A stretch of 64,000 bases of DNA, taken from IMG/VR virus record IMGVR_UViG_3300042549_007519, positions 6,174 to 70,173 of that record, one strand, 5' to 3'. The translations under genes were made by a program, and so were the position numbers. Every line of letters starts with the position of its first letter. Positions within the stretch are counted from its first letter, which is position 1. The notes beneath the pieces were generated by a model that saw only the letters and a list, made by a program, of their open reading frames with translations, was not told where the DNA came from and searched no databases. The DNA is from a virus. Shown here piece after piece: positions 3,194 to 42,535 of this stretch.

Positions 3194-3535
3194 TTATATT
3201 TTTATAGAGCCACCTATATAATTATTACTGAACATGTATATTGTAGTTCCAGAATAGGTAAAAATACCAACATTAAGAGTATTTAAAGCATCTACATATC
3301 CTTGAATAGTTGCAGTAACATTATTGAAAAAATATTGTAACAATGTAGATGGAGCTGAAACACTATAATATCCGAAAACCCAAGTAGAAGTAGTAAAAGT
3401 TTCTCCTGACATATCAAACTCGTAAACAGTTTTTATATTGTTTAAAGCATTTGGGTCTTGAATAACTCCTAATATAGAAATTGGTAATTCTGAAGGAACA
3501 TTATTTGTTATTTTTAAATTTATAGCTGTTATCAT
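3194..3535 (-). CDS. beta-rich putative structural protein, weakly similar to the MCP N-terminal part
   Basis: INLKITN..ISILG and C-terminal GSIKI resemble MCP IVDITS..FEVLG and GSITI. Confidence 0.5.
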   Translation of the reverse strand: MITAINLKITNNVPSELPISILGVIQDPNALNNIKTVYEFDMSGETFTTSTWVFGYYSVSAPSTLLQYFFNNVTATIQGYVDALNTLNVGIFTYSGTTIYMFSNNYIGGSIKI

Positions 3536-3996
3536 ATTTTATTTTTTCTAATTAAATAAGTTACAAATATGCCTATTAAAACTATTGAACCCCACTTAAA
3601 TACTTGGTTGCTTACTAATTTTTTGTCAGTTACAAAGTTTACATAATGCTCACAATTAAAATTTATAAAGTCATATTTATAACCTTTCAAAGCTTCATAC
3701 ATTTGGGTCAAGTCCTTACTTCCTAAATTAGTTTTACTTACTGAAATAATATCTTTTCCTTTTATGTAACTTTCAAGCGGTTCACAAATTAGATTGCCAC
3801 CATTTGAATTTATTTTATCGGTTTGCAAATGATAAATATAAAGGCTATCTCCTTGTTTTTCTACAATTGCATAATGATATAATATTGGCAAAATATCTAC
3901 TTTCAGTTTGATTAAATCCCCAGTTTCAAGTTTAGATATTGTATGCTCTCTATTTTGTATTTTAATTTCGTTTAAATCACTTAAATTATATGACAT
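3532..3996 (-). CDS. LRAT-like (permuted NlpC/P60) protein with C-terminal TM
   Basis: HYAIV, IYH, YDFINFNCEHYV motifs; likely start MSYNL at 3996. Confidence 0.75.
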   Translation of the reverse strand: MSYNLSDLNEIKIQNREHTISKLETGDLIKLKVDILPILYHYAIVEKQGDSLYIYHLQTDKINSNGGNLICEPLESYIKGKDIISVSKTNLGSKDLTQMYEALKGYKYDFINFNCEHYVNFVTDKKLVSNQVFKWGSIVLIGIFVTYLIRKNKI

Positions 3997-4426
3997 CTTT
4001 AAATTGTTTAAAAAAATCATTATCAAAAAAAGAAGTTGCAGAAACATAATCTCTTAATGCAAGTTGATTAACATAAATACTCATATAAATAGATTCATTT
4101 GGCAAAACATTTATATCAAAAGTAGTCTGTCCATTTAAAACAACATCATCTTTTGACATTTTAAAAAAAACTGATTTTTGATATTGATAAGGGTCAACAG
4201 TTGGTTTTTGCTCAAACGATTTTATATAACCATTAACATCATATTTTTCTACTTTAAAACCATTTAATATTTGAGAATTTGAATTGGCTTTCATGTATAT
4301 TCCATCAACTCCATAAACAAAACTACCCATAGAATTTAAAATAGATTCATAGGAAGTTCCATCGGTACTTACTACCGAAATTACACCATTTGTGTATGTG
4401 GTCGTTGTTGCAACTACTGTTCCCAT
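3986..4426 (-). CDS. capsid-protein paralog (putative minor capsid protein)
   Basis: SYESIL..QIL..DVNG..PTVDPYQYQ aligns with MCP NYREML..QVL..DANG..PTIDPYQQQ. Confidence 0.7.
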   Translation of the reverse strand: MGTVVATTTTYTNGVISVVSTDGTSYESILNSMGSFVYGVDGIYMKANSNSQILNGFKVEKYDVNGYIKSFEQKPTVDPYQYQKSVFFKMSKDDVVLNGQTTFDINVLPNESIYMSIYVNQLALRDYVSATSFFDNDFFKQFKDVI

Positions 4427-4430
4427 TTTA

Positions 4431-4778
4431 TTATTTTTCTACTTCTTCTTCAGCAACTACACTACCTTTTTTATTCATAGCTTTTAATAACCCTGTTTTT
4501 TTAGATATAAGCACTTTAACTCCATTTTCTTTTAAAATAATAGCACTTAATTTATCTAATTCAGCTTTATTTTCGCCAGAATTAATAGCTTCACGCATTG
4601 CTTGAAGTCCTACAACGGCATTTTCTTTTTCTTTTTTTACATCTTCAGTAGCTTCTTTTGGCTCTGCATATTTATTGTTAACAGATTTTTCCGCATTGTC
4701 TTTTTTAGGCTTAAATATCCATATTAATCCTAAAGCCACACCTAATGTTATCAATAATGTTTTTACTTCTTTATTCAT
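4431..4778 (-). CDS. membrane protein, N-terminal TM
   Basis: LLITLGVALGLIWIF then KPKK. Confidence 0.7.
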   Translation of the reverse strand: MNKEVKTLLITLGVALGLIWIFKPKKDNAEKSVNNKYAEPKEATEDVKKEKENAVVGLQAMREAINSGENKAELDKLSAIILKENGVKVLISKKTGLLKAMNKKGSVVAEEEVEK

Positions 4779-5188
4779 CGTTTTTTTAATTTTATAAGCA
4801 TTAAAACGTATATTAAAACACCTATTCCAATTCCTGCGTAAAGATACTTTTTTTTATTATCATCTTCTGAAATAAGTTTTTCTATTTTTGCTTTGTCAAT
4901 ATATTGAAAAACAATTTTTTGTCTTTCTAATTCGCTACTTACTTGTTGAACTTTTTGCAACAATTCCGCTTGCTTTTTAGCATCTAATTGAGAAATTTCT
5001 TTTTCAAATCTTTTTTGGTCTTTTTTAGCTGATGAAGCAAAAGCAATTTGAACAACAGTAGTCGCAACAAATGAAATAGCTTCAGAATAGCCACCTAAAC
5101 CACCGCCTTTTGCTCCGCTTGTAGCACTCGAACCAACTCCGCTTGTAGTTGATTTAGCACCGCCTAATATCCCATCAAATAATCCCAT
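4775..5188 (-). CDS. membrane protein, Gly-rich N-terminus, coiled coil, C-terminal TM
   Basis: YLYAGIGIGVLIYVLMLI-KLKKR. Confidence 0.7.
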   Translation of the reverse strand: MGLFDGILGGAKSTTSGVGSSATSGAKGGGLGGYSEAISFVATTVVQIAFASSAKKDQKRFEKEISQLDAKKQAELLQKVQQVSSELERQKIVFQYIDKAKIEKLISEDDNKKKYLYAGIGIGVLIYVLMLIKLKKR

Positions 5189-5190
5189 TA

Positions 5191-5535
5191 CTATTGTTTT
5201 TTATAACTTCCACCTATTAAAGCTACTCCATAAATTAATGAAATTCCCAATCCACTACCTGCTACATAAATCCATGTGTCTTTTAGCCTTTGAGTACTTT
5301 CCTTTTGAAGTGCAATCTTATATCCCAACAAAGAATCAGCAAGTATTTTTGTTCTTTCTGTTTCTCCAAGTAATTTTAATTCTTCGTATTTAAGTTTTTC
5401 TTGCGAGGTTAAGTTTGCCAAAAACATTGCTTTTTGTAATTCTCTTTGTTTTTTAGCTTCTTTTTTAGCCTTTGCTCCACCTATAACACTTGTTATGACT
5501 GAAACACCTATTCCTGCTACTGCTACATAACTCAT
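5191..5535 (-). CDS. membrane protein with two hydrophobic segments, similar layout to 4775..5188
   Basis: hydrophobic N-terminus, coiled coil, WIYVAGSGLGISLIYGVALIG. Confidence 0.7.
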   Translation of the reverse strand: MSYVAVAGIGVSVITSVIGGAKAKKEAKKQRELQKAMFLANLTSQEKLKYEELKLLGETERTKILADSLLGYKIALQKESTQRLKDTWIYVAGSGLGISLIYGVALIGGSYKKQ

Positions 5536-5541
5536 TTCTTG

Positions 5542-6024
5542 TTATTTTAATTGTTTATAATTATCATATTCCTCAAATGAAGAAACTACAAATTTTTCTT
5601 CTAACTTATCTATGTTTTCTTCTCCATCTGGATTAGGATGCACATTTACAAAAACAGAATCTTCAACTGCAACTACAACTCTTTTTGTTCCTGCTGGGGA
5701 TTTTCCATAACAAGGTGCAACCATTTCTTGAACTCCGTTTTCAGTACATAACATTAATTTGCCTTTCAACAAAAAAAATGCGTGGTCGTGCTTATGAATT
5801 TTACCAATAGCAAAAACGCCTTGTTTTAAAAAAATTTCTCTTACATAAATACCATCACAAAAAGTATGAGTTAATGGTAAAGCTTCTGAATTACCAATAA
5901 TAACATCTGGAGAACCACTATTTATTAATAGTTTTTCAAGATATTCAACTTGTTCATGAAAATTTGAGCCATCTTGGTTAAAAAAAACATCGCTTTCTTT
6001 GGTTGCTATTTCTTGGTTTGTCAT
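5542..6024 (-). CDS. cupin-fold phage protein
   Basis: HTFCDGIYVRE..GKIHKHDH..PAGTKR..NVHPNP. Confidence 0.7.
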   Translation of the reverse strand: MTNQEIATKESDVFFNQDGSNFHEQVEYLEKLLINSGSPDVIIGNSEALPLTHTFCDGIYVREIFLKQGVFAIGKIHKHDHAFFLLKGKLMLCTENGVQEMVAPCYGKSPAGTKRVVVAVEDSVFVNVHPNPDGEENIDKLEEKFVVSSFEEYDNYKQLK

Positions 6025-6025
6025 T

Positions 6026-6637
6026 TTAACCTATTTTATTAATTGTCAAAGTAGCCGATGGACTATCTGGTTTGCCAGAAGTACCAGCAGTAGCACTTAA
6101 TTGAACATCACTACTATTTGTAAAACCATAAAAATATAATTGTTCTGTACCATCTAATTCTAAAGTAATATTATAATTAAATAAAATAAAAACATCTGCA
6201 TTTAATTTATATATTTTATTTGAATCGCTAATGTTATCATTTGCATTTTGCATCCAAATATTAACTTGTCTTAACGAAGCATCTTTATTGTTTAATTGTA
6301 AAGACAAATTAAAATTATAAATTCCTGCTTCTGAAACAGTTATTTTTCTATCAGCATCAGTAATTGTTATACCATTTCGTACTATTAAATTCCCAAATGA
6401 TAATACTATATTATTTGTTGCATTAAAAACTTGGTTTTGTCCGCTTAAAGCATATAGATATATATAATCTGTTGTTGGTGGTGTAGGTGGTATTACAATA
6501 TAATCGCTTAAATCTTGGACATTTCCCCTAACATCTTTGACTTTCATTACATCATCATCTCCATCAACAAAAATAGCCAAGCTATTCCCATCTGGCGATT
6601 TTATATTGTTTGCACTTGATTTTGTTACATTTCCCAT
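6026..6637 (-). CDS. putative spike/receptor-binding protein with C1q/TNF-like head
   Basis: ITVSEAGIYNFNLSLQL; PPTPP linker; N-terminus shared with 6643..7188. Confidence 0.6.
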   Translation of the reverse strand: MGNVTKSSANNIKSPDGNSLAIFVDGDDDVMKVKDVRGNVQDLSDYIVIPPTPPTTDYIYLYALSGQNQVFNATNNIVLSFGNLIVRNGITITDADRKITVSEAGIYNFNLSLQLNNKDASLRQVNIWMQNANDNISDSNKIYKLNADVFILFNYNITLELDGTEQLYFYGFTNSSDVQLSATAGTSGKPDSPSATLTINKIG

Positions 6638-7191
6638 TTTTTTTATAAAATTTGATATACGCCACAAATATCAAAGTGGCTTGTTATTGTTGTTGCACCT
6701 ACTGGCGTATTAAATTTCCAATTCAAATCAGTTGTACTTCCAGAATAATATAATTTGTGTATTGTTGAACTAATTGACAAATCTGTAATGCCTGCAATGT
6801 GATATAACGAATTACCAGTTGTTTGGTGTAGTGTTCCATTTGCTTGTCGCATTGTTTCTACGCTTGCAAAAGGTAATGTTATTTGATATTGACCAGTACC
6901 AAAATTAGTACAGTCAGCAAAATCAACATAAACTCTAAAAAAACAAATGTTTGGAGCTATCATAGTATAAGAGCCTGTTGCTGTTACACCATCCAATGTT
7001 CCAGAAGCATCTGTAAACAAAGGATTAAATGATTGTGATGAAGGATTTACATAATCGCTTAAATCTTGCACATTTCCCCTAACATCTTTAACCTTAATTG
7101 TATTGTCATCTCCATCTACAAAAATAGCCAAACTATTCCCATCTGGAGATTTTATATTGTTTGCACTTGATTTTGTTACATTTCCCATTTT
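6500..7191. repeat. ~140-bp near-identical direct repeat (6500-6640 / 7051-7191)
   Basis: encodes the shared MGNVTKSSANNIKSPDGNSLAIFVDGDD...DLSDY. Confidence 0.9.
6643..7188 (-). CDS. putative spike/receptor-binding protein
   Basis: same 47-aa N-terminus; head with GSYTMI..FRVYVDF..GTGQYQITLPF, typical of fibre tips. Confidence 0.6.
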   Translation of the reverse strand: MGNVTKSSANNIKSPDGNSLAIFVDGDDNTIKVKDVRGNVQDLSDYVNPSSQSFNPLFTDASGTLDGVTATGSYTMIAPNICFFRVYVDFADCTNFGTGQYQITLPFASVETMRQANGTLHQTTGNSLYHIAGITDLSISSTIHKLYYSGSTTDLNWKFNTPVGATTITSHFDICGVYQIL

Positions 7192-7501
7192 AGCTAAATA
7201 TTTTATCCCAATACCTTAAAACAAATCCATAAAGAATACCAACAACTGTTACACCACCTATGATTTTAGCTTTATAAGACTTATCTTCTTCAATATATTT
7301 CCTATGCTCATTAACTTGCTCTACAAGTCCTTTCTGACCATATTCCTTATTGCCTATTACTGTTTGGTTTAATTTTATTAATGAAATTTCCATTTCATTT
7401 AGCTTTCCATTCATTTTAGTCAACATATCTTTTATAAAAGTCATATCGCTTTCTGGAACGCTAATCATAGATTCTTTTTTACTTGCTCTTTCTATTGCCA
7501 T
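7190..7501 (-). CDS. coiled-coil protein with C-terminal TM
   Basis: IIGGVTVVGILYGFVL. Confidence 0.65.
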   Translation of the reverse strand: MAIERASKKESMISVPESDMTFIKDMLTKMNGKLNEMEISLIKLNQTVIGNKEYGQKGLVEQVNEHRKYIEEDKSYKAKIIGGVTVVGILYGFVLRYWDKIFS

Positions 7502-7502
7502 T

Positions 7503-7928
7503 TTACAATCCTAATTTTTCTAAATGCTTGGATAACGGAACTACTTTAATTTTTTTCAAAGGTTTGTTTTCTTCAATTTGATAAAAACCTAAACCTACGC
7601 CTTGTTTTTTATTGTTATCTTCATATTTGAAAATAAAGCAACAAACTTGACTTACATTAGTTTCGCTTTCTTCAGCACATTCAATTAAACTTTTTTTCAA
7701 AAAAGGACTTGCTAAAGCTTCATAGCCAAACATATCCAATTTTTTGTCCATAATTTGTAAAAACCTAACTTCTTCTTCTTCAATATAGTTTTTACACATT
7801 TTGTAAATCACACTACCATTTGGGTCATCTGATACTTTAATCTGAACCTCAAGGTCTTTTAAACCATAATTTTTAGCATATTTTTCAATACCTGTAAACA
7901 TGATTTTTTTAACAATTCCTTCAATCAT
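7503..7928 (-). CDS. hypothetical protein
   Basis: ORF within the operon. Confidence 0.6.
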   Translation of the reverse strand: MIEGIVKKIMFTGIEKYAKNYGLKDLEVQIKVSDDPNGSVIYKMCKNYIEEEEVRFLQIMDKKLDMFGYEALASPFLKKSLIECAEESETNVSQVCCFIFKYEDNNKKQGVGLGFYQIEENKPLKKIKVVPLSKHLEKLGL

Positions 7929-7962
7929 TATTTTGTATTTTAAGTTTCTTGATTCAAAAATA

Positions 7963-8526
7963 CTATTTTATTCCCAATGCTTGAAACACTTTTGAATATT
8001 TATCTTTAAGTTTTTGATATTTTTCTCCAAAACCATATTCAGAAATTAAATCACTTGAATAATTAAATTTCTCTTTGTTGAATGTAATTGTAGAATTTAC
8101 GTTCATAAAAACAATTTTTACAACTCCCTCAACTTCAATGTCAATTGGTTTTTGTTTCAATACATTATTTAAAAAAGAAGGTAAACTTTCTTTTAAATCA
8201 TTAACGTTTATAATTCCAACTCCAGTTACTTCAAATGAACTATTTGGCTCAATTATAGTTTGTTTTTTAGACACTACATCTGAAAACTTTTTACCATTGT
8301 AGAATAATTTTAAATCAAATGAATTAATTATTAATTTGAAGTTTGACTTATTAGTTATTTCAATAGTTGCACTTACTTTTACATCGTTACCGCTAATACC
8401 TAAATACTTGAAATTCTTAATTTTATAATCGTATTTCATTGCCAAATCAACTTGGTATTTGAAGTATCTATATAATCCAAAACCAGCCAATCCAATTCCA
8501 CCTATTATTAATGCTTTTTTTAACAT
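7963..8526 (-). CDS. LEA_2/WHy-like beta-sandwich protein with N-terminal TM
   Basis: IEITNKSNFKLIINSFDLKLFYNGKKF..IEPNS pattern. Confidence 0.7.
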   Translation of the reverse strand: MLKKALIIGGIGLAGFGLYRYFKYQVDLAMKYDYKIKNFKYLGISGNDVKVSATIEITNKSNFKLIINSFDLKLFYNGKKFSDVVSKKQTIIEPNSSFEVTGVGIINVNDLKESLPSFLNNVLKQKPIDIEVEGVVKIVFMNVNSTITFNKEKFNYSSDLISEYGFGEKYQKLKDKYSKVFQALGIK

Positions 8527-8530
8527 AATT

Positions 8531-9088
8531 TTATTTTTTTGCTATTATATACAATCCAACCAATAACACCAACGAACCTAATCCAATGTAAAGATATTGC
8601 TCTTTATAACTCGAAGGCAAAACATTTGATTCTGATATTGTTGACTTTCCAGTTAATATTTCAGCACTTTCAACTAACCTCTTATATTCAATGTCATTTC
8701 TACAATCTAAAGTTGAAAAAAGTTTTTCTAATCTTAAAATGTAGTATGGTAATAATTGTTCTCCCAAAACCCTTCCTAAATATTGTTTTTTGTTAGGTGT
8801 TTCATTTCTATATTTTTGTGGCAAGCTTTTATTTATATGCTCTATAAATGAATTTAAAAGTTTTTTTATAGATTCTGGTTGTGTAGATTCTAACATAGTA
8901 TAACCTCTCAACTTTTCAGCTTTTAAATAAGCTAAATCATCTTTTGCTTCTTTTATGTTTGCATCTATTTTTATACAATTTTTCTCAAAAGCAGAATATT
9001 TTTTTTCCAACTCTTGTTTTAAAAAAATAGTTCTTAAATCTTGGCTTGCAATACCACTATCATATAAAAATTGTAAATCAATTGCCAT
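8531..9088 (-). CDS. membrane protein, C-terminal TM, Cys pair; paralog of 11192..11560
   Basis: NC...DC and YIGLGSLVLLVGLYII. Confidence 0.65.
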   Translation of the reverse strand: MAIDLQFLYDSGIASQDLRTIFLKQELEKKYSAFEKNCIKIDANIKEAKDDLAYLKAEKLRGYTMLESTQPESIKKLLNSFIEHINKSLPQKYRNETPNKKQYLGRVLGEQLLPYYILRLEKLFSTLDCRNDIEYKRLVESAEILTGKSTISESNVLPSSYKEQYLYIGLGSLVLLVGLYIIAKK

Positions 9089-9288
9089 TACTTTTTCTTT
9101 TTAACGATTACTTTTAAAACAAGTATAGATAAAACACTTATACCCAAAATAATTCCAAAACGAATTACTTTTTGTTTTTGAATTTCAGAACTTTTGTCTT
9201 GTTTTTTAAATTCTTCTTCTTGAGTATTTAAAAAATCATCTATTCTTGAAACTGCTGTTGGGTCATATATTAAACCTTGCTTTTCCAT
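9088..9288 (-). CDS. small membrane protein, C-terminal TM
   Basis: FGIILGISVLSILVL-KVIVKKKK. Confidence 0.7.
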   Translation of the reverse strand: MEKQGLIYDPTAVSRIDDFLNTQEEEFKKQDKSSEIQKQKVIRFGIILGISVLSILVLKVIVKKKK

Positions 9289-9289
9289 T

Positions 9290-9877: not shown

Positions 9878-9893
9878 ATATTTATATTTTAAA

Positions 9894-10433: not shown

Positions 10434-10438
10434 ATCTA

Positions 10439-10711
10439 TTATTTTAAAGCTGTTCCACCTTGAGTTCTATAACTTTTGCCATTATAAACAAAAGTATTTT
10501 TGTTTTCTAAAATAGCATTTGCCCACACTCCCAAAAAAGCATCTTCAAAGGTAGAAATAACATTTCTATCTTTGTGTTTTGCGTTTTCAATTATTATGTT
10601 AATGCTATCTTCTTTTGTCAATACTTTAACTTTCTTAAATTCTTTGTAAGCTAAATAACCTCCAACTCCTAATATTGCTAATGCAATCCAAACGTATGCT
10701 TTATTTTTCAT
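10439..10711 (-). CDS. membrane protein, N-terminal TM
   Basis: AYVWIALAILGVGGYLAY; FVYNGKSY. Confidence 0.7.
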   Translation of the reverse strand: MKNKAYVWIALAILGVGGYLAYKEFKKVKVLTKEDSINIIIENAKHKDRNVISTFEDAFLGVWANAILENKNTFVYNGKSYRTQGGTALK

Positions 10712-10722
10712 TTTTTATAATT

Positions 10723-11190: not shown

Positions 11191-11191
11191 T

Positions 11192-31528: not shown

Positions 31529-31529
31529 A

Positions 31530-35925: not shown

Positions 35926-35942
35926 AATATGGGTTAGTTATT

Positions 35943-37907
35943 TTAATTTAACATTTCTAATATTTCTAAAGCTTCCTCAACTTCTTGTTTTTCATCGTCA
36001 GGCAAAGTTTCTAACAACATTTTAAGCGTTTCTATTGCTTCTTGTAATTCGTTTGGCTCTACTTCTTTATTTTCAATAGCAGGCACAATTTCAGCAGTAG
36101 TTTCTTTTATTTCTTCTACTACTTTTTTCATTTGCAATTCAGCACTAAAAAAGTCTTTATTTTCTTGTAAAAATTGTTCAATCAAAGGTTTAATTTTTGA
36201 GTTGAAATTTTCTTTGTTTACAAAAACTTCTTGGTTTGCTATTTTTTCTGGAACAGAAAAGTTACCATAACCATATACTATTTCTACATCATCGCCATAC
36301 TTTTGCATTACAAAATATTGTTGCATTGCTCTTGCAAAACATTCCTTTGTAGCATTGATATAATCAGTTTGTTGCTCTTTTGGTTTATTTAAGTTATTTC
36401 TAAACGTAAAAGCAATTACACCAGCAGTAGATTCAAAGTTATCAGTTTCCCAACGCTTACCATTTTTTTGACCTAATTTATTATCAATAAAGTGTGCCAA
36501 TTCGTGAGCAAAAGTAGAGTTAAATTGAATTTCTCCATACTTATCAGAAACGGCAATAGTTCCCATGCTTGGAATATAAACTCCAACCGCTTTTTGAGCA
36601 AAAACTAACTTCTTACCAGTATGAGAAATTTTCATATTGTTTTGAATAAATTCGTCTTTTAAGTTACCAAACACTTTGCTAATTTCAATTAAACCTTGTT
36701 CGATTTGCTGTGTTTCAGATGCGTTAATTTTATCCCCATTTTGTCTTTTTACCAACACTCCATAATCGGCATACAAATAGTTTTCGGTATTAGATTCTCC
36801 AAATGAAGTTTCAATAGCCGTTTTATAGTTTTCAGACATTTCTTCTCTTTGAAATTCAATATCCTTAAACTTGTATTCCATCATTTCTCTAAAATCTCTC
36901 CAATATTTAAAAACTAATGGGTGTGCATAAGCTCCAACAGATTTTTCTCCTATTTTTAATCGAGTTGTTTTATTAGAAGCAGTTCTTAAAAATTCTGGAT
37001 TAATAAAGACATTATACATATCGTGAAAAGATGAGTACATTCTATCTTCTCTTAATGCTGTTTTAATTTTTTCTGCACCATAAACCTTATATGCAGGCGA
37101 TAATTTTTCTTTTTCACTTAAAGGTAAATCAATCCATTCTTGCTCGGTATATTTTTTCTGTAAAGCTTTGCTTATAGAATAATAAAAACCTTTTTGGGAA
37201 TAATGTTTTTCTCTACGTTCTAAAGGCAATGAAAAATAATACTCTTTTGATTTTTCTGTTTTTTGGTCAGCTTTTTTCTTATTAACCGCTTTAAGTTTAG
37301 TTAAATAGTATAAGCTAATCAAAACTAATTGGTCAAGAGTTACTAAAAACACTTGCGATTGATTTTCAAAAGTACTATATTGATAGTCTGAATAAGAAAC
37401 TACATAGGTATCATTTGTATATCTAATTGCATCTAAAATAGTACCTCTTATTCTAAATTTTTCTTCATCAATTAAAGGAATATATGCAGGTGCAGGGTCA
37501 ACTAAAATTGTTTCTATGTCAAATATAATTTTGTCTGTATTTACATTTCTAAAATCAGGAACACCTTTGTAAACTTTTCCTGTTTTGTCCTCAAATTCAA
37601 CAACAGTACCGCCATTTGAAATTGCTTTTAGTTGATTATCAATATTTTTTAATTGATTTGTTTTAATATTAACTAAAGCACTAATAGCTCCTCTTTTGTT
37701 CATTATAACTTCACGTTGTTTCCATTCAGCAATAGATGAATATTCGACTTTTAAAACTTCATCTTCATCTTTAAGTTTTTGAATTTCAGTTGCAATCGCT
37801 TCTTTTTGATTAGAAAAATCCAATAAAACTTTTTCAGCAAATTCCTTTGCCATTTTAGTTGCTAACTCTAATTCTTCTTCGGTTAGTATGTCTTTTAATT
37901 CTTTCAT
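35943..37907 (-). CDS. large polyvalent protein with zincin (MPTase/LPD1-like) domain
   Basis: FAHELAHFID..ECFARAMQQY. Confidence 0.7.
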   Translation of the reverse strand: MKELKDILTEEELELATKMAKEFAEKVLLDFSNQKEAIATEIQKLKDEDEVLKVEYSSIAEWKQREVIMNKRGAISALVNIKTNQLKNIDNQLKAISNGGTVVEFEDKTGKVYKGVPDFRNVNTDKIIFDIETILVDPAPAYIPLIDEEKFRIRGTILDAIRYTNDTYVVSYSDYQYSTFENQSQVFLVTLDQLVLISLYYLTKLKAVNKKKADQKTEKSKEYYFSLPLERREKHYSQKGFYYSISKALQKKYTEQEWIDLPLSEKEKLSPAYKVYGAEKIKTALREDRMYSSFHDMYNVFINPEFLRTASNKTTRLKIGEKSVGAYAHPLVFKYWRDFREMMEYKFKDIEFQREEMSENYKTAIETSFGESNTENYLYADYGVLVKRQNGDKINASETQQIEQGLIEISKVFGNLKDEFIQNNMKISHTGKKLVFAQKAVGVYIPSMGTIAVSDKYGEIQFNSTFAHELAHFIDNKLGQKNGKRWETDNFESTAGVIAFTFRNNLNKPKEQQTDYINATKECFARAMQQYFVMQKYGDDVEIVYGYGNFSVPEKIANQEVFVNKENFNSKIKPLIEQFLQENKDFFSAELQMKKVVEEIKETTAEIVPAIENKEVEPNELQEAIETLKMLLETLPDDEKQEVEEALEILEMLN

Positions 37908-37913
37908 TATTTA

Positions 37914-40900
37914 TTAATTTAAAGGCGTTCTAATTGGCTCAAAAGTTAGTTTTTTACCTAACGCACCACCAAACTCATAACTATCTTCTTTAAGCATATT
38001 TAAAATTTCTAATGCTTCGTAAATTTCTTTTCTTTGCTCCTCGTTTTCTTCAATTTCAGCCAACATCAATAAAGTTTCAATAGCTTCTCTAACTTGTTCT
38101 CTTTCTACGTTTACAGCTTCTTTTTTCGCTTTAGCTACCTTTTTAGGTTGTTGCTTTGTTTTTTCCTCTGGCAAAGTCTTTTTGTAGTCTATTGCATCAA
38201 TTGGGAAAATATAAGGACTAAAAGGCTCGGTAAAATAACATTCAACTTCCGTATCGGTTATTGTATCTAACATTACTTGAAATAAATTTTTACCAAAAGC
38301 AAAATATTGATTTTCTTTAAATTCGTCTTTAACTGGCATTAATAAAAACACAGATTTGTCTAAACTTATAGTTGAATCAACTTGCTGATAATTAAAATCA
38401 ATTTCGCATAATTCAATTTTATCTACATATTCTAATTGCTTATTATATCCTAAATCGTTATTTGCTTTTAAAAATAAACTATTGCCTTCGTTTGTAAAAG
38501 TTAATACCGAATTTTTATTGTATTTTTCAATAAATTTTTGTGCTTTCTCGCTATTCAAACAATTATTCATAGCAACATGGTCAAAAACTATTTTTTTTGT
38601 ATTATATCGTGTTATAATTGCATCAACATTAGAGTATCTACCTTCAATAGTTCTTGCAACAAAATCAATGTTTTCTGCTTCAATAAATATATTAGCCTTA
38701 CTAAATTTAAAGTGTAACGAACCATCTGCTAACTCAACAAATTGCTTCAAAAAATTTACTGGCAAAATGTATTCTAATTCTCTATCGTCTTTTTCAAATT
38801 CACAATATTCGGTAACATTTATTTTGCAAAGTGTATGAGCATTAGTGGTTACTAAAAACAATTGGTTATCACTTGTTTTTTTGATACAAATACCTGTTTG
38901 TTTCGGTCTTAATTCATCTTTACCTACTGACAATAACAATTTGTCTAAATAGAAATCAAATACTTCGCTAAAAGTTATAAATTCAAAAGCAGTCGGCTTG
39001 CCCTTAACTTCTCCTAAATAATTTTGTTCATTAACTTCATTTTTATTAAAAACCCTTTCGCTTGGAAAATCCTCAATAGGTTCTATTGTGATAAAAGGAT
39101 TTTTTTTATAAAATTCATAAATCCCATCAGGTGCTTGTACGTTTTTAATTTTAATTTCGGTTTCTAAATTAGAAACGGTCAATACTTTATTTTCTATTTT
39201 GGCAAATTGTAAAATAGGTAATTGAATTTTAGAATTTTTATTTAAAAATGATTGTACTAAATCCGATTCTTTATCATCAAGTAACATATTGGATTCATAT
39301 TGCATTTTAAATTCTGCAATAGAGCCATCTGCATTATGAATTTCATTATCGTTGAAATCGAAATATACTTTAATCTCTCTATCATTTCCATATTTAAAAT
39401 TGTCAACAGCTCCATAGCCTTCAAAATCTTTTACTAAAGTTGGCATAGTAAGCAATATTTCATCACTTCCTAATTCATAGTTTTTATTAGGTGTAAATAT
39501 AACCCCTCTGCTTGGATAAGAAATGAAAGCATATACTTCTTTATGTCCTAATTTTAATAATGTAGTCAGTGTAGTTATTAAATATTTAGCATTTAACCCT
39601 ATTTGATTGTCATCTCCATATCTAAAAACAACTTGAAATGTAGTTTGATTTGTGTAATTAACAGCAGTTTTAGTGTATTGCAATAACTTATAAATATCTA
39701 CTAAATAAGATGTGCCTGCATCTTCTTTTTTAGGTATTACATTTTCATATTTTGCATACGCTTCATTAATTAAAAGAGGTTGACTTGGATTTGTTTTTTT
39801 TACTTTATTTATATCATAAACACCATTATACTTCTCATTTGGATAAGGTAACGTAATTAAAATAAGTGCATTGGTAGCCGTAATACCATTTTCATCAAAA
39901 TTAACTCCTGTTAAACTTGGTCTAACATTATCATCATCTTTATATAAATATGGTTGAATTATAGTTTCTAATCCTTTATCAATAGGATTATTAATAAAAG
40001 GTACTTTTTTAGTTTTTGTAATATTTTTAAAAATACTTGGCACTTTACTCCATTCGTAAACTTTACCACTTAAAGTTTGACCGCCATTTTTATACACATC
40101 AGCCATAAAACCGCCTTCATCAAAAGCAAGTCCGTTTTCCATACCTACTTGTCCATCTGCTTCCATATCTAAAACATCATTATAGTTGTTTAAATCTCTT
40201 GAAGGATGGTCGCCTTTTTTGGATTTTTCAGCTAAATTCATTTGACCGCCATTATTATATTTAACATTTACAACTTTATGAAAATCATTATTATCATCAT
40301 TTATAGCATAGCCGTTATCGTGAAGCCAATATTTCATTAATTCAACATCTGAAAAATAACTTGTTCTTTCGTCTTTAGTAAATTCAACTTCATTACTTAT
40401 ATGCCCAAAAATAACATCATTACCGTTTTTTTTGCAATAATCGTCTAAATACTTTAGTGTTTTCTTGCCTAAACCATTAAGTCTATTTTCTTTTGTTATA
40501 TACAAAGTTTGAATATAAATTGGATTTTTACATTCTATACCATATTCTTTTGCATGAGTTGACGTAGTTTTATAAAATTTTAAATCAATTTGACCTTCTT
40601 TAATTAGCTTTTCTATTTCTCCGACATTATCGTACTCATGCTCACACCCACAATTGCTTATTTCTTGCATAATTTCATAATCAGTCATAGTTTTACCACC
40701 ATAATTGTATGAACTACCATTGAAATAAATTTCGCCACCATTCTCTAATGAAACACCACCGCCTTTTTCGTTGATTTTAGACAATATTTCTCTATTGGTT
40801 AGCATTTGTCCTTCAAACTCTCTTTTGGTTTGGTCTGCAACCGCTGGAGCAGTAATAATTACTTCCCCACCTTGTACCTCAATTGGTTGTCCAGTAGATT

Positions 40901-41063
40901 TATTAACACCTTTTATTCCACCTTCTTTATGTAGTTTGCCAACAAAATAACCACCTTCAGTTCCTTTATCATGAATTATTGTTTGACCCTCTCTTTTGCC
41001 GACTAAAACACCGCCTGCTGGAGAGTTTTTTGCTTTTTCTTCGGTTATTGTATCTTTTTTCAT
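37914..41063 (-). CDS. large polyvalent protein with GNAT-like and beta-clamp-like domains
   Basis: RLNGLGKKTL (GNAT motif A); KDELRPKQTGI..VTTNAHTL..RTIEGRYSNV and DNVRPSLTGV..ATNA (DnaN-like). Confidence 0.65.
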   Translation of the reverse strand: MKKDTITEEKAKNSPAGGVLVGKREGQTIIHDKGTEGGYFVGKLHKEGGIKGVNKSTGQPIEVQGGEVIITAPAVADQTKREFEGQMLTNREILSKINEKGGGVSLENGGEIYFNGSSYNYGGKTMTDYEIMQEISNCGCEHEYDNVGEIEKLIKEGQIDLKFYKTTSTHAKEYGIECKNPIYIQTLYITKENRLNGLGKKTLKYLDDYCKKNGNDVIFGHISNEVEFTKDERTSYFSDVELMKYWLHDNGYAINDDNNDFHKVVNVKYNNGGQMNLAEKSKKGDHPSRDLNNYNDVLDMEADGQVGMENGLAFDEGGFMADVYKNGGQTLSGKVYEWSKVPSIFKNITKTKKVPFINNPIDKGLETIIQPYLYKDDDNVRPSLTGVNFDENGITATNALILITLPYPNEKYNGVYDINKVKKTNPSQPLLINEAYAKYENVIPKKEDAGTSYLVDIYKLLQYTKTAVNYTNQTTFQVVFRYGDDNQIGLNAKYLITTLTTLLKLGHKEVYAFISYPSRGVIFTPNKNYELGSDEILLTMPTLVKDFEGYGAVDNFKYGNDREIKVYFDFNDNEIHNADGSIAEFKMQYESNMLLDDKESDLVQSFLNKNSKIQLPILQFAKIENKVLTVSNLETEIKIKNVQAPDGIYEFYKKNPFITIEPIEDFPSERVFNKNEVNEQNYLGEVKGKPTAFEFITFSEVFDFYLDKLLLSVGKDELRPKQTGICIKKTSDNQLFLVTTNAHTLCKINVTEYCEFEKDDRELEYILPVNFLKQFVELADGSLHFKFSKANIFIEAENIDFVARTIEGRYSNVDAIITRYNTKKIVFDHVAMNNCLNSEKAQKFIEKYNKNSVLTFTNEGNSLFLKANNDLGYNKQLEYVDKIELCEIDFNYQQVDSTISLDKSVFLLMPVKDEFKENQYFAFGKNLFQVMLDTITDTEVECYFTEPFSPYIFPIDAIDYKKTLPEEKTKQQPKKVAKAKKEAVNVEREQVREAIETLLMLAEIEENEEQRKEIYEALEILNMLKEDSYEFGGALGKKLTFEPIRTPLN

Positions 41064-41064
41064 T

Positions 41065-41691
41065 TTACCCTATTAAAAATTTTAAATAATCTGGAGTACC
41101 ACTTTCTGTAATACCGCCTTTATTGTATCTTATATCGTTATTGTCTTTGTCAAAAGTTGTGTTCGTTCCATCTCCCAACTTAATTTGTTCTGAATAATAT
41201 GCCACAATTTCTTCCGCCCTATCAACTCCTTGTTCAAAATTAAAATCCTTTTCCCAATTAGGATAAACAACTACCCCATCATAACCTTCGTCTTTTAAAT
41301 CATCTGATTTTAATTCATAATTTCTGTATGAAGATTCTTTAAAATAAGGATTTTTTATATTTAAAAAACAATTATATTCAAATTCTCCATACCTATCTTG
41401 ACCTACATTTGGCGTAAAATAAAATCCTTTTCCATAAAAACCACCATCTGTCGTACTTCCGATTCTATATTCGTCAAATTCAAAAAATTCATTTGGACTA
41501 TTATGCACACAAATTAATGGCTCTCCATTTTCATCAATTATTTTTGAAACTCCATAGTAATCTTTAGTTTTATATGCTTCTTCCCAATCGCCAAACCATT
41601 GTTTAAACTCTTTTGTTCTTACAAGATTATATATTTCAGTAAAATATAAACCACTTGGCTTACCATTTGGTGCTAATAATTCTTTTTTCAT
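41065..41691 (-). CDS. ADP-ribosyltransferase-like (polyvalent-protein ART type)
   Basis: VRTKEFKQWFGDW..DENGEPL..H..GKGFYFT..GYDGV..EIVAY..QIK. Confidence 0.7.
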   Translation of the reverse strand: MKKELLAPNGKPSGLYFTEIYNLVRTKEFKQWFGDWEEAYKTKDYYGVSKIIDENGEPLICVHNSPNEFFEFDEYRIGSTTDGGFYGKGFYFTPNVGQDRYGEFEYNCFLNIKNPYFKESSYRNYELKSDDLKDEGYDGVVVYPNWEKDFNFEQGVDRAEEIVAYYSEQIKLGDGTNTTFDKDNNDIRYNKGGITESGTPDYLKFLIG

Positions 41692-41692
41692 T

Positions 41693-42262
41693 TTACCCTA
41701 TTAAAAATTTTAAATAGTCTGGAGTACCACTTTCTGTAATACCGCCTTTATTATATCTTATATCGTTACTTTTTGAATCAAATGTAGTGTTAGTGCCATC
41801 GGCAAGTTTTATTTGGTTAGAATTATATATATTAATATTAAATTTAGGAGCTAATTTATTTTTATATTTACCTGACCAATCAACATTATAAACATACGAA
41901 TCATATCCCAAATCATCATAATCATCACGATTTTCTGAATCAAATGTAATATTAAAAGATTTTATAAAATATTCTTTTGATTTTCCATAACTTCCTGCCA
42001 ATTCTTTTTGGTTTGTAAACCAATGACCAACTCTTACTGATTTATCATTTGGAAAACGTTCTTTAAATATGTTGAATTTTTTATCAGTTCCATGATAAAC
42101 TACAAGTGGCTCTCCATTTTCATCAATAACCTTACTGGCATTTTCTGGGTCGTTTTCCCAATCCCCAAACCATTTTTTAAATTCTGGTGTGCGGACTAAT
42201 TTATATTGTTCAGCAGTCAAATTGCTCGGTTTACCATTTGGTGCTAATAATTCTTTTTTCAT
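41693..42262 (-). CDS. ADP-ribosyltransferase-like (polyvalent-protein ART type), tandem paralog
   Basis: VRTPEFKKWFGDW..DENGEPLVVYHGT..WFT..NQIKLADGTNTTF. Confidence 0.7.
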   Translation of the reverse strand: MKKELLAPNGKPSNLTAEQYKLVRTPEFKKWFGDWENDPENASKVIDENGEPLVVYHGTDKKFNIFKERFPNDKSVRVGHWFTNQKELAGSYGKSKEYFIKSFNITFDSENRDDYDDLGYDSYVYNVDWSGKYKNKLAPKFNINIYNSNQIKLADGTNTTFDSKSNDIRYNKGGITESGTPDYLKFLIG

Positions 42263-42418
42263 GAAACATCAATATTTTTTTCAAATGTATAAAATTCTAT
42301 TGTAATCTAAAAATCATATTATTTATAATATGCAACATAATTTATTCAAATGTAGGCATTTAATATTTTTTTACTACATTTGTTTCTAATAAATTTATTA
42401 ACTTAAAAAATTTTAATC

Positions 42419-42535
42419 ATGGGTGCAGGATTTTTCGACATCAAAAGTGCTAATTATTTAGGTGGAGTAAATTTGCATAACACAGTTACGATTGCGTTAT
42501 TAGCATTTTTAGTTTACAAAACAGTTAAGAAGTAA
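42419..42535 (+). CDS. 38-aa membrane peptide in a stand-alone plus-strand unit
   Basis: MGAGFFDIKSANYLGGVNLHNTVTIALLAFLVYKTVKK; TACATTTG at 42375-42382; terminator downstream. Confidence 0.7.
   Translation: MGAGFFDIKSANYLGGVNLHNTVTIALLAFLVYKTVKK

What the first reader, a model, noticed from the sequence alone, without database searches (positions are those of the whole stretch)
3194..42535. Large tailless, membrane-containing Bacteroidota phage: A32-like ATPase, small capsid protein and ~40 membrane proteins
Seen: a stand-alone ~270-aa P-loop ATPase with Walker A/B and the RH..Q signature, and a 233-aa beta-rich protein with its own promoter/terminator and paralogs. About 31 short TM-anchored ORFs lie in 3.5-20 kb and about 8 more in 26-42 kb. 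No terminase, portal, HK97 capsid, tape-measure or tail genes appear anywhere in a 39-kb structural-looking block. Established: FtsK/HerA-type packaging ATPases (PRD1/PM2 P9, poxvirus A32) go with jelly-roll capsids and internal membranes, and known bacterial examples have much smaller genomes and fewer membrane proteins. Inference: a >64-kb tailless lipid-containing virus whose replication and early genes resemble those of tailed phages, possibly an undescribed lineage.
Basis: partly seen in the sequence, partly recalled or inferred. Interest (0 to 1): 0.93.

Follow-up and report, generated by a model that had tools for sequence, protein, structure and literature searches.

The report
Large tailless-type Bacteroidota phage lineage
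This roughly 70-kb lake-water virus of Flavobacteria-like bacteria carries the DNA-packaging motor, a jelly-roll protein and the many membrane proteins typical of small tailless lipid-containing phages, but in a genome several times larger than any known bacterial example.

Summary
The window is 64 kb of a 70,173-bp virus contig.

- **ATPase:** the 272-aa ATPase (21540-22358, minus strand) gives a confident model (pLDDT 96.9). Its nearest solved structure is the STIV2 B204 genome-packaging NTPase (VIA Z 18.2; next is HerA at 15.8). It is the only convincing Walker-A protein among my 136 ORFs.
- **233-aa protein:** it folds as an eight-stranded jelly roll, sits between two terminators, is the most conserved protein of the block, and has two paralogs. 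The fold matches are generic (Z 7 or below), so a capsid role is inferred, not shown.
- **Membrane proteins:** 29 of 65 ORFs in the block have a hydrophobic segment, against 0 of 20 and 5 of 51 elsewhere in the genome.
- **Tailed-phage genes:** no terminase, portal, HK97 capsid or tail-tube profile matches here, in 10 relatives, or in 4 bacterial genomes carrying integrated relatives.
- **Host:** Bacteroidota is supported.

Most likely this is an undescribed, abundant lineage of large non-tailed, membrane-containing phages (about 0.6). Virion architecture is untested.

The parts
21540..22358 (-). g64: 272-aa stand-alone FtsK/HerA-superfamily ATPase, the proposed genome-packaging motor
   Evidence: Walker A, Walker B and the RH..Q motif are conserved in 29 sequences. 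AF2 pLDDT is 96.9. Foldseek ranks 1-15 are all B204 chains, best E 4.7e-10. VIA gives Z 18.2 to 4kfr_A, against 15.8 for HerA. The profile hits 4kfr at E 6.6e-4 over residues 8-176. Apart from a likely spurious match in g33, it is the only Walker-A ORF of 136.
23889..24947 (-). g68: 352-aa acidic protein with a basic C-terminal tail, the conserved upstream partner of the ATPase; proposed packaging accessory or adaptor
   Evidence: It lies next to the ATPase in the relatives. A homolog precedes the ATPase in the Fluviicola chromosomal element (hhalign probability 98.7%). Complex prediction gave weak support only: score 0.45, best control 0.01.
19096..19797 (-). g58: 233-aa jelly-roll protein, the best candidate for the major capsid or capsomer protein
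   Evidence: AF2 core 53-200 is a beta sandwich with pLDDT 73-90. Fold matches are generic jelly rolls with Z at most 7.0. Identity to relatives is 66-95%. At least 1,961 family members exist.
19851..19979 (-). g59: 42-aa single-TM peptide in the same terminator-bounded unit as g58
20067..20088 (-). terminator-like hairpin upstream of the g59-g58 unit
   Evidence: sequence read
19014..19050 (-). GC stem plus T-run directly downstream of g58
   Evidence: read directly from the sequence; not listed by the scan
22361..23014 (-). g65: 217-aa paralog of g58, immediately downstream of the ATPase
   Evidence: 47% identity over 152 aa, E 1e-43. No separate copy was detected in G002 or G005. A tandem second copy is present in L031.
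3986..4426 (-). g23: 146-aa short paralog of the g58 jelly roll; possibly a vertex or penton protein (inference)
   Evidence: blastp E 3.6e-5; hhalign probability 94%, E 1e-7, with a shared PTxDPYQxQ motif; conserved in G002 and G005
5542..6024 (-). g27: 160-aa protein with a receptor-binding-type domain shared with 'short tail fibre' proteins of podophages
   Evidence: phrog_12032 at 6e-31 and phrog_24280 at 2.6e-22; tblastn 34% identity to Ralstonia phage RSK1 and Firinga fibre proteins
6026..7188 (-). g28 and g29: two ORFs sharing a 47-aa N-terminus (91% identical) with different C-termini; replaced by 870-1,450-aa ORFs in relatives; likely host-recognition spikes
3194..32258 (-). Block of 65 ORFs, 29 with a predicted TM segment; single C-terminal anchors are frequent
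   Evidence: The genome-wide count is 14 single C-terminal and 13 single N-terminal anchors at threshold 1.6.
13994..14782 (-). g45: 262-aa protein with an HEFSH (HExxH) motif, part of the conserved core
   Evidence: motif read directly; conserved at 45-94% in 27 ORFs and in distant relatives
20840..21313 (-). g62: M15-family peptidase (endolysin)
   Evidence: phrog_6584 at 1.2e-90; 79.5% identity to the Flavobacterium columnare phage FCV-1 M15 peptidase; 166 phage records matched, 146 of them Flavobacterium phages
25783..26427 (-). g71: PAP2-type phosphatase, part of the conserved core
   Evidence: A PAP2 Pfam hit occurs in this ORF group (5.3e-9). Assignment to this ORF rests on my reading of the PSGH and SR..H..D motifs. 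Conserved in distant relatives.
28394..30055 (-). g78 (GH108-type lysozyme with a C-terminal TM) and g81 (glucosaminidase-type), with small ORFs between them
   Evidence: Pfam hits occur in this ORF group. The mapping to these ORFs is my own reading of the sequences.
32281..42262 (-). g86-g90: three large proteins (1214, 654 and 1049 aa) and two ART-PolyVal proteins; a polyvalent-protein-like module, greatly expanded in relatives
62679..63122 (.). Two blocks (62679-62785 and 63003-63122) that are inverted copies of the first 280 bases of the contig, which lie outside the window
   Evidence: 99% over 120 bp and 91.6% over 107 bp. The 878 bases beyond them have single-copy depth in Logan contigs.

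Best explanation
The window is most of the genome (about 70 kb) of a virus of Bacteroidota, probably Flavobacteriia-like lake bacteria. It most likely builds a non-tailed particle of the PRD1, PM2 or STIV type.

**Proposed mechanism (inference).**
- A shell is built from jelly-roll proteins. g58 would be the major one. g65 and g23 would be a second capsomer protein or a vertex paralog.
- The shell assembles on a membrane vesicle loaded with about 30 small virus-coded, mostly single-pass membrane proteins.
- The single FtsK/HerA-type ATPase g64 pumps the DNA into the preformed particle at a special vertex. Its conserved partner g68 and small TM proteins would assist.
- Spikes with exchangeable C-termini (g27-g29, g84-g85) recognise the host.
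- Several wall hydrolases (M15, GH108-type, glucosaminidase-type) serve entry and lysis.
- Large polyvalent proteins (g86-g90) are probably delivered with the DNA.

**Shown.** The ATPase fold and its nearest neighbour; the jelly-roll fold of g58 and its paralogy; the enrichment of membrane ORFs; the lack of detectable tailed-phage genes; the conserved core; the host link.

**Inferred.** The capsid role of g58, the internal membrane, the absence of a tail, and the packaging mechanism.
For: **1. ATPase.**
- AF2 model pLDDT 96.9.
- Foldseek PDB ranks 1-15 are all STIV2/STIV B204 packaging NTPase chains (best E 4.7e-10). The next rows are Zot at 4.4e-7 and VirB4 at 2.6e-6.
- VIA against 48,161 chains: 4kfr_A Z 18.2, rmsd 2.8, 186 of 204 residues aligned. 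Below it are HerA 15.8, VirB4 15.2, TrwB 12.9 and FtsK 10.9. No terminase is in the 50 rows shown.
- An 81-sequence profile hits B204 at E 6.6e-4 across Walker A to the RH..Q motif.
- Pfam DUF87 (HerA) is matched by 38 of 81 family members.
- 652 representatives at 50% identity belong to the family; the 150 listed are mostly stand-alone proteins of about 260-340 aa, with some shorter fragments.

**2. Only candidate motor.** It is the only convincing Walker-A ORF among 136.

**3. g58.**
- Jelly-roll core. Viral penton and capsid jelly rolls are among the best VIA rows: PR772 chain O Z 6.1, phiCjT23 chain J Z 5.8, FLiP capsid protein 5.0, PM2 2w0c_L 4.9.
- Bounded by terminators.
- The most conserved protein: 76-89% identity against 57-74% for the ATPase in G002 and G005.
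- At least 1,961 homologs, with longest contigs repeatedly 66-72 kb.

**4. Gene order.** The order g68, ATPase, (g65), g58, g57 ... g45 is kept down to 34% ATPase identity.

**5. Membrane ORFs.** 29 of 65 in the block. The genome fraction is 25%, against 10% for tailed FCV-1, 32% for PRD1 and 37% for PM2.

**6. Tailed-phage hallmarks absent.**
- PF03237: 0 of 5 relatives.
- PF03354: 0 of 5 further relatives.
- PF05065 and PF04860: 0 in the own genome.
- PF03237 and PF05065: 0 of 4 bacterial genomes holding integrated relatives.
- PHROG and Pfam scans of 121 of my 136 ORFs in G000 and 10 large ORFs of G005 gave none.

**7. Virus, not plasmid.**
- Three kinds of wall hydrolase, and an endolysin 79.5% identical to that of Flavobacterium phages.
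- A receptor-binding-type domain.
- Integrated relatives in Fluviicola, Parvicellaceae and Crocinitomicaceae genomes with a g58-like gene. In both Parvicellaceae chromosomes a tyrosine integrase lies about 12 kb past that gene.
Against: - **g58 fold matches are generic.** The best Z is 7.0 to the AlgX carbohydrate-binding module. TNF/C1q, nucleoplasmin and picornavirus-type capsid proteins score alike, and Foldseek PDB has no hit at E <= 1e-3. BFVD's best rows are minor tail, fibre and C1q-like proteins. So g58 could be a spike or decoration protein.
- **No double jelly-roll capsid protein was found.** No Pfam capsid family of any kind matched.
- **Only 2 of about 136 proteins were folded.** Divergent HK97 capsid, portal or tail proteins often escape sequence profiles.
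- **Sequence comparison with PRD1 P9 and PM2 P9 is weak.** hhalign probabilities are 6% and 45%. Pfam Pox_A32 was not among the hits.
- **Zot and TrwB families are matched** by 9 and 3 of 81 family members.
- **Completeness is not proven.** The contig has no terminal direct repeat, and some relatives exceed 100 kb without reaching either replication arm.
- **No expression, particle or lipid data exist.** No RNA run was listed.
Confidence: 0.6

Rival explanations
1. It is a tailed phage (Caudoviricetes) whose head, portal and tail proteins are too divergent for sequence profiles. The HerA-like ATPase would then have another role and g58 would be a fibre, decoration or accessory protein.
For: - BFVD rows for g58 are minor tail, fibre and C1q-like proteins.
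- g27 matches 'short tail fibre' families.
- Several ORFs of at least 300 aa have no family hit: g114, g86, and large ORFs of G005.
- The replication genes are of tailed-phage type.
Against: - No terminase by two Pfam families in 10 relatives, or by PF03237 in 4 host genomes. No PHROG terminase other than the ATPase's own weak phrog_2666 match.
- g64 is the only convincing Walker-A protein, and it is B204-like.
- Only 4 ORFs exceed 400 aa. They carry glycosyltransferase, protease-like and clamp-like domains or none.
- The membrane-ORF fraction is 2.5 times that of a tailed Flavobacterium phage.
Confidence: 0.13
2. It is a virus with the HerA-type motor but a different, undescribed particle, for example enveloped or pleomorphic with many anchored surface proteins. 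In that case g58 is a major envelope-associated or spike protein rather than a shell protein.
For: - About 30 membrane ORFs is far more than PRD1 or PM2 need.
- 14 ORFs in the genome have a lone C-terminal anchor.
- No double jelly-roll capsid protein was found.
- The g58 fold is as close to lectin and TNF-like domains as to capsid proteins.
- Three glycosyltransferases and a PAP2 phosphatase are encoded.
Against: As far as I recall, B204/A32-type ATPases are known only from viruses that fill a preformed icosahedral shell. Three jelly-roll paralogs beside the ATPase recall the ATPase-plus-two-capsid-gene block of sphaerolipoviruses (also recalled).
Confidence: 0.17
3. It is not a virus but another mobile element, such as a conjugative or vesicle-transferred plasmid, wrongly filed as viral. 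The ATPase would then be a DNA-transfer ATPase of the VirB4, TrwB or HerA kind.
For: - VirB4, TrwB and HerA are the next structural neighbours (Z 12.9-15.8).
- TrwB and Zot Pfam families are matched by a few family members.
- ART-PolyVal polyvalent proteins also occur on conjugative elements (recalled).
- Integrated copies sit in chromosomes.
Against: - No relaxase, VirB4 or coupling-protein family appeared in any scan.
- The ATPase is 272 aa with no TM or DNA-binding domain.
- Endolysins, a receptor-binding-type domain and a hugely conserved jelly-roll protein are present.
Confidence: 0.05

Closest known systems
STIV and STIV2 (Turriviridae) B204 genome-packaging NTPase, and the wider A32/PRD1-P9 class of FtsK/HerA packaging ATPases
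   Same: Small stand-alone ATPase. The fold matches best (Z 18.2, rmsd 2.8, 186 of 204 residues, 17% identity). The Walker A, Walker B and R-H...Q motifs align.
   Different: It has an extra helical C-terminal part of about 55 aa (residues 218-272). The host is bacterial, not archaeal. It gives no Pfam Pox_A32 hit and only weak similarity to PRD1 and PM2 P9. The genome is about 4 times larger than STIV's (STIV size recalled).
Tectiviridae and Corticoviridae (PRD1, PM2) and the metagenomic double jelly-roll phages of Yutin et al. 2018
   Same: Packaging ATPase next to jelly-roll structural genes. The share of small membrane ORFs is similar (25% here, 32% and 37% there). Virion-type lysins are present. 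A penton-sized jelly-roll paralog exists.
   Different: No double jelly-roll capsid protein was found. No protein-primed polymerase or terminal protein is present; the genome encodes a DnaD-like initiator and a DnaQ-like exonuclease instead. The genome is about 70 kb or more, against 'roughly, between 7 and 18 kb' (passage read in PMC5894146). PRD1 is 14.9 kb and PM2 10.1 kb.
Sphaerolipoviridae and related Helvetiavirae (P23-77, SH1, HHIV-2)
   Same: As I recall, these have a conserved block of an A32-like ATPase followed by two single jelly-roll capsid genes and an inner membrane. Here the ATPase is followed by g65 and g58, which are single jelly-roll paralogs.
   Different: Their capsid proteins were not among the 50 best VIA rows. 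The second paralog was not detected in 2 of the 2 relatives read in full, G002 and G005. Their hosts are Thermus and haloarchaea, and their genomes are about 17-31 kb (recalled).
Flavobacterium phages FLiP and phiCjT23 (Finnlakeviridae)
   Same: Bacteroidota host, lipid-containing and tailless. phiCjT23 chain J and the FLiP capsid protein appear among the g58 fold rows (Z 5.8 and 5.0).
   Different: They are ssDNA viruses of about 9 kb without a packaging ATPase (passage in PMC5894146; abstracts listed). No sequence similarity was found.

Membership tests
A32/B204/P9-type genome-packaging ATPases (FtsK/HerA superfamily) | P-loop ATPase with Walker A, Walker B and the arginine...glutamine motif after the Walker B strand | tested here: met
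   GRKGCGKT, LLLIEDIN and NRH..D....HFQS are invariant or nearly so in 29 and 81 sequences.
A32/B204/P9-type genome-packaging ATPases (FtsK/HerA superfamily) | Nearest solved structure is a viral packaging ATPase rather than HerA, FtsK, VirB4 or a terminase | tested here: met
   4kfr_A Z 18.2 against HerA 15.8, VirB4 15.2 and FtsK 10.9. Foldseek ranks 1-15 are all B204 chains.
A32/B204/P9-type genome-packaging ATPases (FtsK/HerA superfamily) | Small stand-alone protein of about 200-280 aa without nuclease, TM or extra domains | tested here: met
   272 aa with no TM segment. The listed family representatives are mostly about 260-340 aa.
A32/B204/P9-type genome-packaging ATPases (FtsK/HerA superfamily) | Sequence-profile membership (Pfam Pox_A32; similarity to PRD1 or PM2 P9) | tested here: inconclusive
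   Pox_A32 is not among the Pfam hits at E <= 0.01. hhalign gives probability 6% to PRD1 P9 and 45% to PM2 P9. The profile hits B204 at E 6.6e-4.
A32/B204/P9-type genome-packaging ATPases (FtsK/HerA superfamily) | Packages DNA into a preformed capsid | not testable with these tools
   Needs biochemistry or genetics.
Double jelly-roll capsid viruses (Bamfordvirae, Tectiliviricetes) | [quoted passage not shown] | tested here: inconclusive
   No capsid Pfam or PHROG family matched in 66 block proteins. The one candidate folded is a single jelly roll. The other proteins were not folded.
Single jelly-roll capsid viruses with inner membrane (Helvetiavirae-like) | ATPase gene followed by two single jelly-roll capsid genes | tested here: inconclusive
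   g65 and g58 follow the ATPase here. No second copy was detected in G002 or G005. The capsid role is unproven, and P23-77/SH1-type capsid proteins are not in the 50 best rows.
Membrane-containing virion | Lipid in the particle and virus-coded membrane proteins | tested here: inconclusive
   Membrane ORFs are enriched: 29 of 65 in the block, and 25% of the genome against 10% for a tailed phage. Lipid itself cannot be tested here.
Caudoviricetes (tailed phages) | Large terminase subunit | tested here: not met
   PF03237 0 of 5, PF03354 0 of 5 and PF03237 0 of 4 genomes. The only convincing Walker-A protein is B204-like. The sole PHROG 'terminase large subunit' hit is the ATPase's own, phrog_2666 at 1.7e-7. 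The same label is used for PRD1 and PM2 P9 in the phage records.
Caudoviricetes (tailed phages) | Portal, HK97-fold capsid protein, and tail tube, sheath or tape measure | tested here: inconclusive
   PF04860 and PF05065 give 0 in the own genome. PF05065 gives 0 of 4 host genomes. No PHROG structural family matched except a fibre-type domain. Sequence profiles miss divergent members, and the folds of most proteins were not predicted.
Conjugative elements (type IV secretion) | Relaxase, VirB4 and coupling protein | tested here: not met
   None appeared in any Pfam or PHROG scan of this genome or of the Fluviicola locus. There is a single small ATPase only.

The most novel reading that the evidence does not exclude
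This is a member of an abundant, so far undescribed lineage of large (about 70 to over 100 kb) non-tailed, membrane-containing dsDNA phages of Bacteroidota.
- Their shell would be built from single jelly-roll paralogs and filled by a B204/A32-type ATPase. That would make them by far the largest bacterial members of the jelly-roll and inner-membrane virus world.
- Replication is host-type rather than protein-primed.
- The particle would carry about 30 virus-coded membrane proteins.
- Temperate relatives sit in cultured Fluviicola.
Probability: 0.45. Interest if true: 0.92.

Novelty: new variant of a known kind. Interest (0 to 1): 0.82.

Why it matters
Known bacterial viruses with jelly-roll capsids and inner membranes have small genomes, 'roughly, between 7 and 18 kb' for the metagenomic double jelly-roll set (passage in PMC5894146). 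Large genomes of this architecture are otherwise known from eukaryotic giant viruses.

A 70-100-kb bacterial lineage with the same packaging motor would have several consequences:
- It would break the size limit seen so far in bacteria.
- It would show that the motor-plus-membrane design scales up in bacteria.
- It would add an abundant lake-water virus group: at least 1,961 homologs of g58 and 652 ATPase representatives. Tail-centred and terminase-centred virus classification overlooks such a group.

The integrated relative in the cultured strain Fluviicola chungangensis MAH-3 makes the question directly testable at the bench.

Tried and rejected
- **tblastn against isolated phages.** The ATPase and g58 against 50,697 phage records gave no match. 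The tool may leave out very near records.
- **ESM Atlas for g58.** It holds no model, and feature scores were 0.83-0.84, below the usable level.
- **PDB profile search with the narrow 29-sequence ATPase alignment.** Only P-loop-level hits appeared: ClpB 0.01, HerA 0.038. The wider 81-sequence alignment was needed.
- **'Linear genome with long terminal inverted repeats'.** I first held this because IMG/VR labels G005 and G008 as ITR and G000's left end is an inverted copy of 68852-69295. I dropped it for three reasons.
  - Both 'ITRs' are exactly 123 bp, which looks like an assembler overlap.
  - The 878 bases beyond the right copy in G000 have single-copy depth.
  - No protein-primed polymerase was found.
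- **'Invertible segment with an invertase'.** Not supported: the phrog_125 hit covers only an HTH part of a 116-aa ORF.
- **Circular permutation test using G006.** Uninformative: its first 39 kb begins near g102 and its right end lies near g28, with no sign of either replication arm.
- **RNA evidence.** No RNA holder was listed.
- **Laid contigs.** They gave no physical-end signal beyond contigs stopping within 4 bases of the window's end in two runs. Those runs may be the source sample.
- **Complex prediction of the ATPase with g68.** Weak support only: score 0.45, best control 0.01, partner pLDDT at least 58, runs agreeing in at least 78% of contacts. The tool says such a pass is more often wrong than right unless the pairing was likely beforehand.
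- **The 340-aa ORF after the ATPase in the Fluviicola locus.** It is not g58-like (hhalign probability 0.2%). The g58-like gene there is the 238-aa ORF upstream.
- **P23-77, SH1 or HHIV-2 capsid proteins.** They did not appear among the 50 best VIA rows for g58.
- **Literature.** Four searches found no description of such a lineage. I saw only search listings and abstracts, plus passages of PMC5894146. Supplements were not opened.

Full report
**What the window is.** The window is bases 6174-70173 of a single 70,173-bp virus contig, G000. GC content is about 29% and no tRNA gene is present. My greedy ORF set holds 136 ORFs. Twenty on the plus strand form a left arm. From window 3194 onward nearly everything is on the minus strand.

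**The ATPase.**
- The ORF at 21540-22376 most likely starts at the ATG at 22358, giving 272 aa, because homologs begin there.
- Walker A (GRKGCGKT), a following strand ending in DVNDEY, Walker B (LLLIEDIN) and NRH..D....HFQS are invariant or nearly so in 29 relatives.
- Pfam gives only a weak HerA-type match (DUF87, 2e-5). PHROGs gives phrog_2666 'terminase large subunit' at 1.7e-7. The phage records of PRD1 and PM2 carry the same label on their P9 packaging ATPases.
- A full HMMER search with the profile found 652 representatives at 50% identity (E <= 1e-3), 248 of them at E <= 1e-30. The 150 listed are mostly stand-alone proteins of about 260-340 aa, with some shorter fragments.
- An 81-sequence profile of this family hits HerA over the P-loop region only (E 5e-5). 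It hits the STIV2 and STIV B204 packaging NTPases over residues 8-177 (E 6.6e-4 and 1.6e-3).
- The AF2 model is very confident, pLDDT 96.9.
- In Foldseek, ranks 1-15 are all B204 chains (best E 4.7e-10). The next rows are Zot at 4.4e-7 and VirB4 at 2.6e-6.
- An all-against-all VIA search of 48,161 chains puts B204 first: Z 18.2, rmsd 2.8, 186 of 204 residues. Below it are HerA 15.8, VirB4 15.2, DndH 15.1, TrwB 12.9 and FtsK 10.9. No terminase is in the 50 rows shown.
- A regex for Walker A finds only this protein and one likely spurious match among 136 ORFs.
The margin is 2.4 Z units.

**The 233-aa protein (g58).**
- Neither Pfam nor PHROGs matches it.
- With a 30-sequence alignment, AF2 gives an N-terminal helix (2-20), a disordered linker, a beta sandwich (53-200, pLDDT 73-90) and a disordered tail.
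- Foldseek against the PDB finds nothing at E <= 1e-3. The weak rows are TNF/C1q domains, picornavirus-like capsid proteins and carbohydrate-binding modules.
- VIA gives Z 6.8-7.0 for the AlgX carbohydrate-binding module. It gives 6.1 for PR772 chain O, which by its size of 124 aa is probably the penton protein (my inference). It gives 6.0 for a nepovirus capsid, 5.8 for phiCjT23 chain J and about 5 for the PBCV-1, FLiP, faustovirus, PM2 and STIV proteins. By the tool's own note, Z below 8 may reflect only a common arrangement.
- BFVD's best rows are minor tail, fibre and C1q-like proteins at E about 2e-4.
- The fold is therefore a jelly roll, but the fold alone does not say 'capsid'.

**Context for g58.**
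- It sits, with a 42-aa TM peptide, between a strong hairpin terminator (20088-20067) and a GC stem with a T-run (about 19050-19014).
- It is the most conserved protein of the genome: 76% and 89% identity to G002 and G005, against 57% and 74% for the ATPase.
- It has two paralogs in this genome: g65 directly after the ATPase, and the short g23.
- Its family has at least 1,961 members, whose longest contigs cluster at 66-72 kb.

**Membrane ORFs.**
- With a simple hydropathy scan, 29 of 65 ORFs in window 3194-32258 have a hydrophobic segment. The left arm has 0 of 20 and the rest of the genome 5 of 51.
- Genome-wide, 14 ORFs have a lone C-terminal anchor.
- The same pipeline gives 10% for the tailed Flavobacterium phage FCV-1, 32% for PRD1 and 37% for PM2. 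It gives 25%, 34% and 30% for G000, G005 and G002.

**Absence of tailed-phage genes.**
- PHROG and Pfam scans of 66 proteins of the block gave no terminase, portal, capsid, tube, sheath or baseplate family. The exceptions are a weak tape-measure hit (E 0.005) and g27's 'short tail fibre' domain.
- Eighteen left-arm proteins, 37 right-arm proteins and 10 large ORFs of G005 also gave none. For the 37 right-arm proteins only the 25 best of 48 PHROG families were shown. I rescanned 10 of them singly.
- Six-frame searches found no PF05065 or PF04860 in G000.
- They found no PF03237 in 0 of 5 relatives and no PF03354 in 0 of 5 other relatives.
- They found no PF03237 or PF05065 in 0 of 4 bacterial genomes with integrated relatives. 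The controls matched in 3-5 of 14 reference genomes.
- These profiles can miss divergent proteins, and I could fold only two proteins.

**What else the block encodes.**
- An M15 endolysin 79.5% identical to that of Flavobacterium columnare phages.
- Families found in the block scans: GH108, glucosaminidase, PAP2, VRR-NUC, a methyltransferase and PG-binding domains. My assignment of these to single ORFs rests on reading the sequences.
- An HExxH protein (g45), and sets of ORFs with shared N-termini and different C-termini (g28/g29; g42/g43/g48).
- Upstream lie three large proteins and two ART-PolyVal proteins. Relatives have 10-20 kb of such large ORFs with MoxR-like ATPase and anti-restriction domains.
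- The arms hold RecT, a DnaQ-like exonuclease, a DnaD-like initiator, methyltransferases, an HNH nuclease and three glycosyltransferases. No protein-primed polymerase was seen.

**Relatives and host.**
- IMG/VR holds 36 loci with g58 at 38-95% identity, 35 of them at 66% or more, on contigs up to 102 kb.
- 69 of 136 G000 ORFs have a tblastn match in G005 (72.5 kb), and 54 of 136 in G002 (102 kb). Both are collinear with G000.
- G002 covers only g111 to g20, and G006 begins near g102 and ends near g28. Some members must therefore exceed 100 kb.
- In 19 loci from species-representative genomes and MAGs, the module PAP2, g68, ATPase, g58, g57 ... g45 ... g32, g31 is kept down to 34% ATPase identity. 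g58 was seen by tblastn in 9 of the 19; several of the others are short contigs.
- Copies inside chromosomes occur in Fluviicola chungangensis MAH-3, in two chromosomes of a Parvicellaceae MAG, in a Crocinitomicaceae MAG and in Glaciecola amylolytica.
- The g58 profile finds a homolog in 3 of those 4 genomes, 10-37 kb from the ATPase. hhalign confirms the Fluviicola one at probability 95%.
- In both Parvicellaceae chromosomes a tyrosine integrase lies about 12 kb past the g58-like gene.
- This, together with the endolysin, supports a Bacteroidota host and temperate relatives. The MAG labels of other phyla may be binning errors; I did not test that.

**Genome ends.**
- G000's first 280 bases are an inverted copy of 68852-69295.
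- G005 and G008 carry 'ITRs' of exactly 123 bp, which looks like an assembler overlap at an inverted repeat.
- Logan contigs show single-copy depth for the last 878 bases.
- I therefore do not claim terminal inverted repeats. The topology is open.
- Completeness is suggested by recurrent contig sizes of 66-73 kb and by G007 breaking at the same place. It is not proven.

**Partner of the ATPase.** g68 precedes the ATPase in all relatives read, including the chromosomal ones. A complex prediction gave weak support only (0.45 against 0.01 for the best control).

**Verdict.**
- The motor, the jelly-roll paralogs, the membrane-protein load and the lack of any terminase point to a PRD1, STIV or sphaerolipovirus-like way of building a particle. 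The genome, however, is 4-10 times larger than in known bacterial examples (7-18 kb in the passage of PMC5894146).
- Four literature searches found no description of such a lineage. I saw listings and abstracts only.
- The capsid role of g58, the lipid content and the lack of a tail remain inferences. I put the main reading at about 0.6.

Noticed in passing
window 62679-63122, and G000 1-280 (outside the window, L044): An inverted repeat in two blocks (120 bp at 99%, 107 bp at 91.6%) links the contig's left end to a site 878 bp from its right end. Relatives G005 and G008 end in inverted repeats of exactly 123 bp, and G008's looks like part of a tRNA gene. The function and the genome topology are unexplained.
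   Followed up: partly
window 32281-42262; G005 11.8-25.1 kb (L040, L041); G002 21.6-45.5 kb: A module of very large 'polyvalent'-type proteins: a DNA pol III beta-like domain inside a 1049-aa protein, a metalloprotease-like C-terminus, and two ART-PolyVal ORFs. In relatives it also has a MoxR-like ATPase and an anti-restriction domain. It varies from 10 kb to over 20 kb between genomes.
   Followed up: partly
L080 (Fluviicola chungangensis contig8) and L081 (Glaciecola amylolytica chromosome): The integrated relatives in a Bacteroidota isolate and in a strain labelled as a gammaproteobacterium are syntenic and about 75% identical at the DNA level over several kb. Both loci have about 36-37% GC. 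This suggests recent transfer across phyla, or a mislabelled or contaminated record.
   Followed up: no
window 43945-45228, 47399-48067, 49202-49846: Three glycosyltransferase-like genes lie in the early or replication region and are conserved in relatives at 54-67%. Their target (DNA, lipid, capsid or host surface) is unknown.
   Followed up: no
window 12420-12935, 12954-13283, 15231-15551: Three ORFs (g42, g43, g48) share a 40-55-aa N-terminus (42-66% identical) and then diverge, like g28/g29. They look like families of proteins with a common anchor and exchangeable heads.
   Followed up: no
window 46049-46888 and 59584-60432: g98 (279 aa) is a paralog of g128 plus g127 (37% over 216 aa, and 51% over 43 aa), as if one copy were split into two ORFs. 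Homologs sit near the ends of G005 and G007.
   Followed up: no
window 60010-60411: Summed depth of lake-metagenome contigs rises 10- to 40-fold over the neighbouring bins here, with many short alternative joints. This is a stretch shared with many other genomes or a hypervariable spot inside g128.
   Followed up: no
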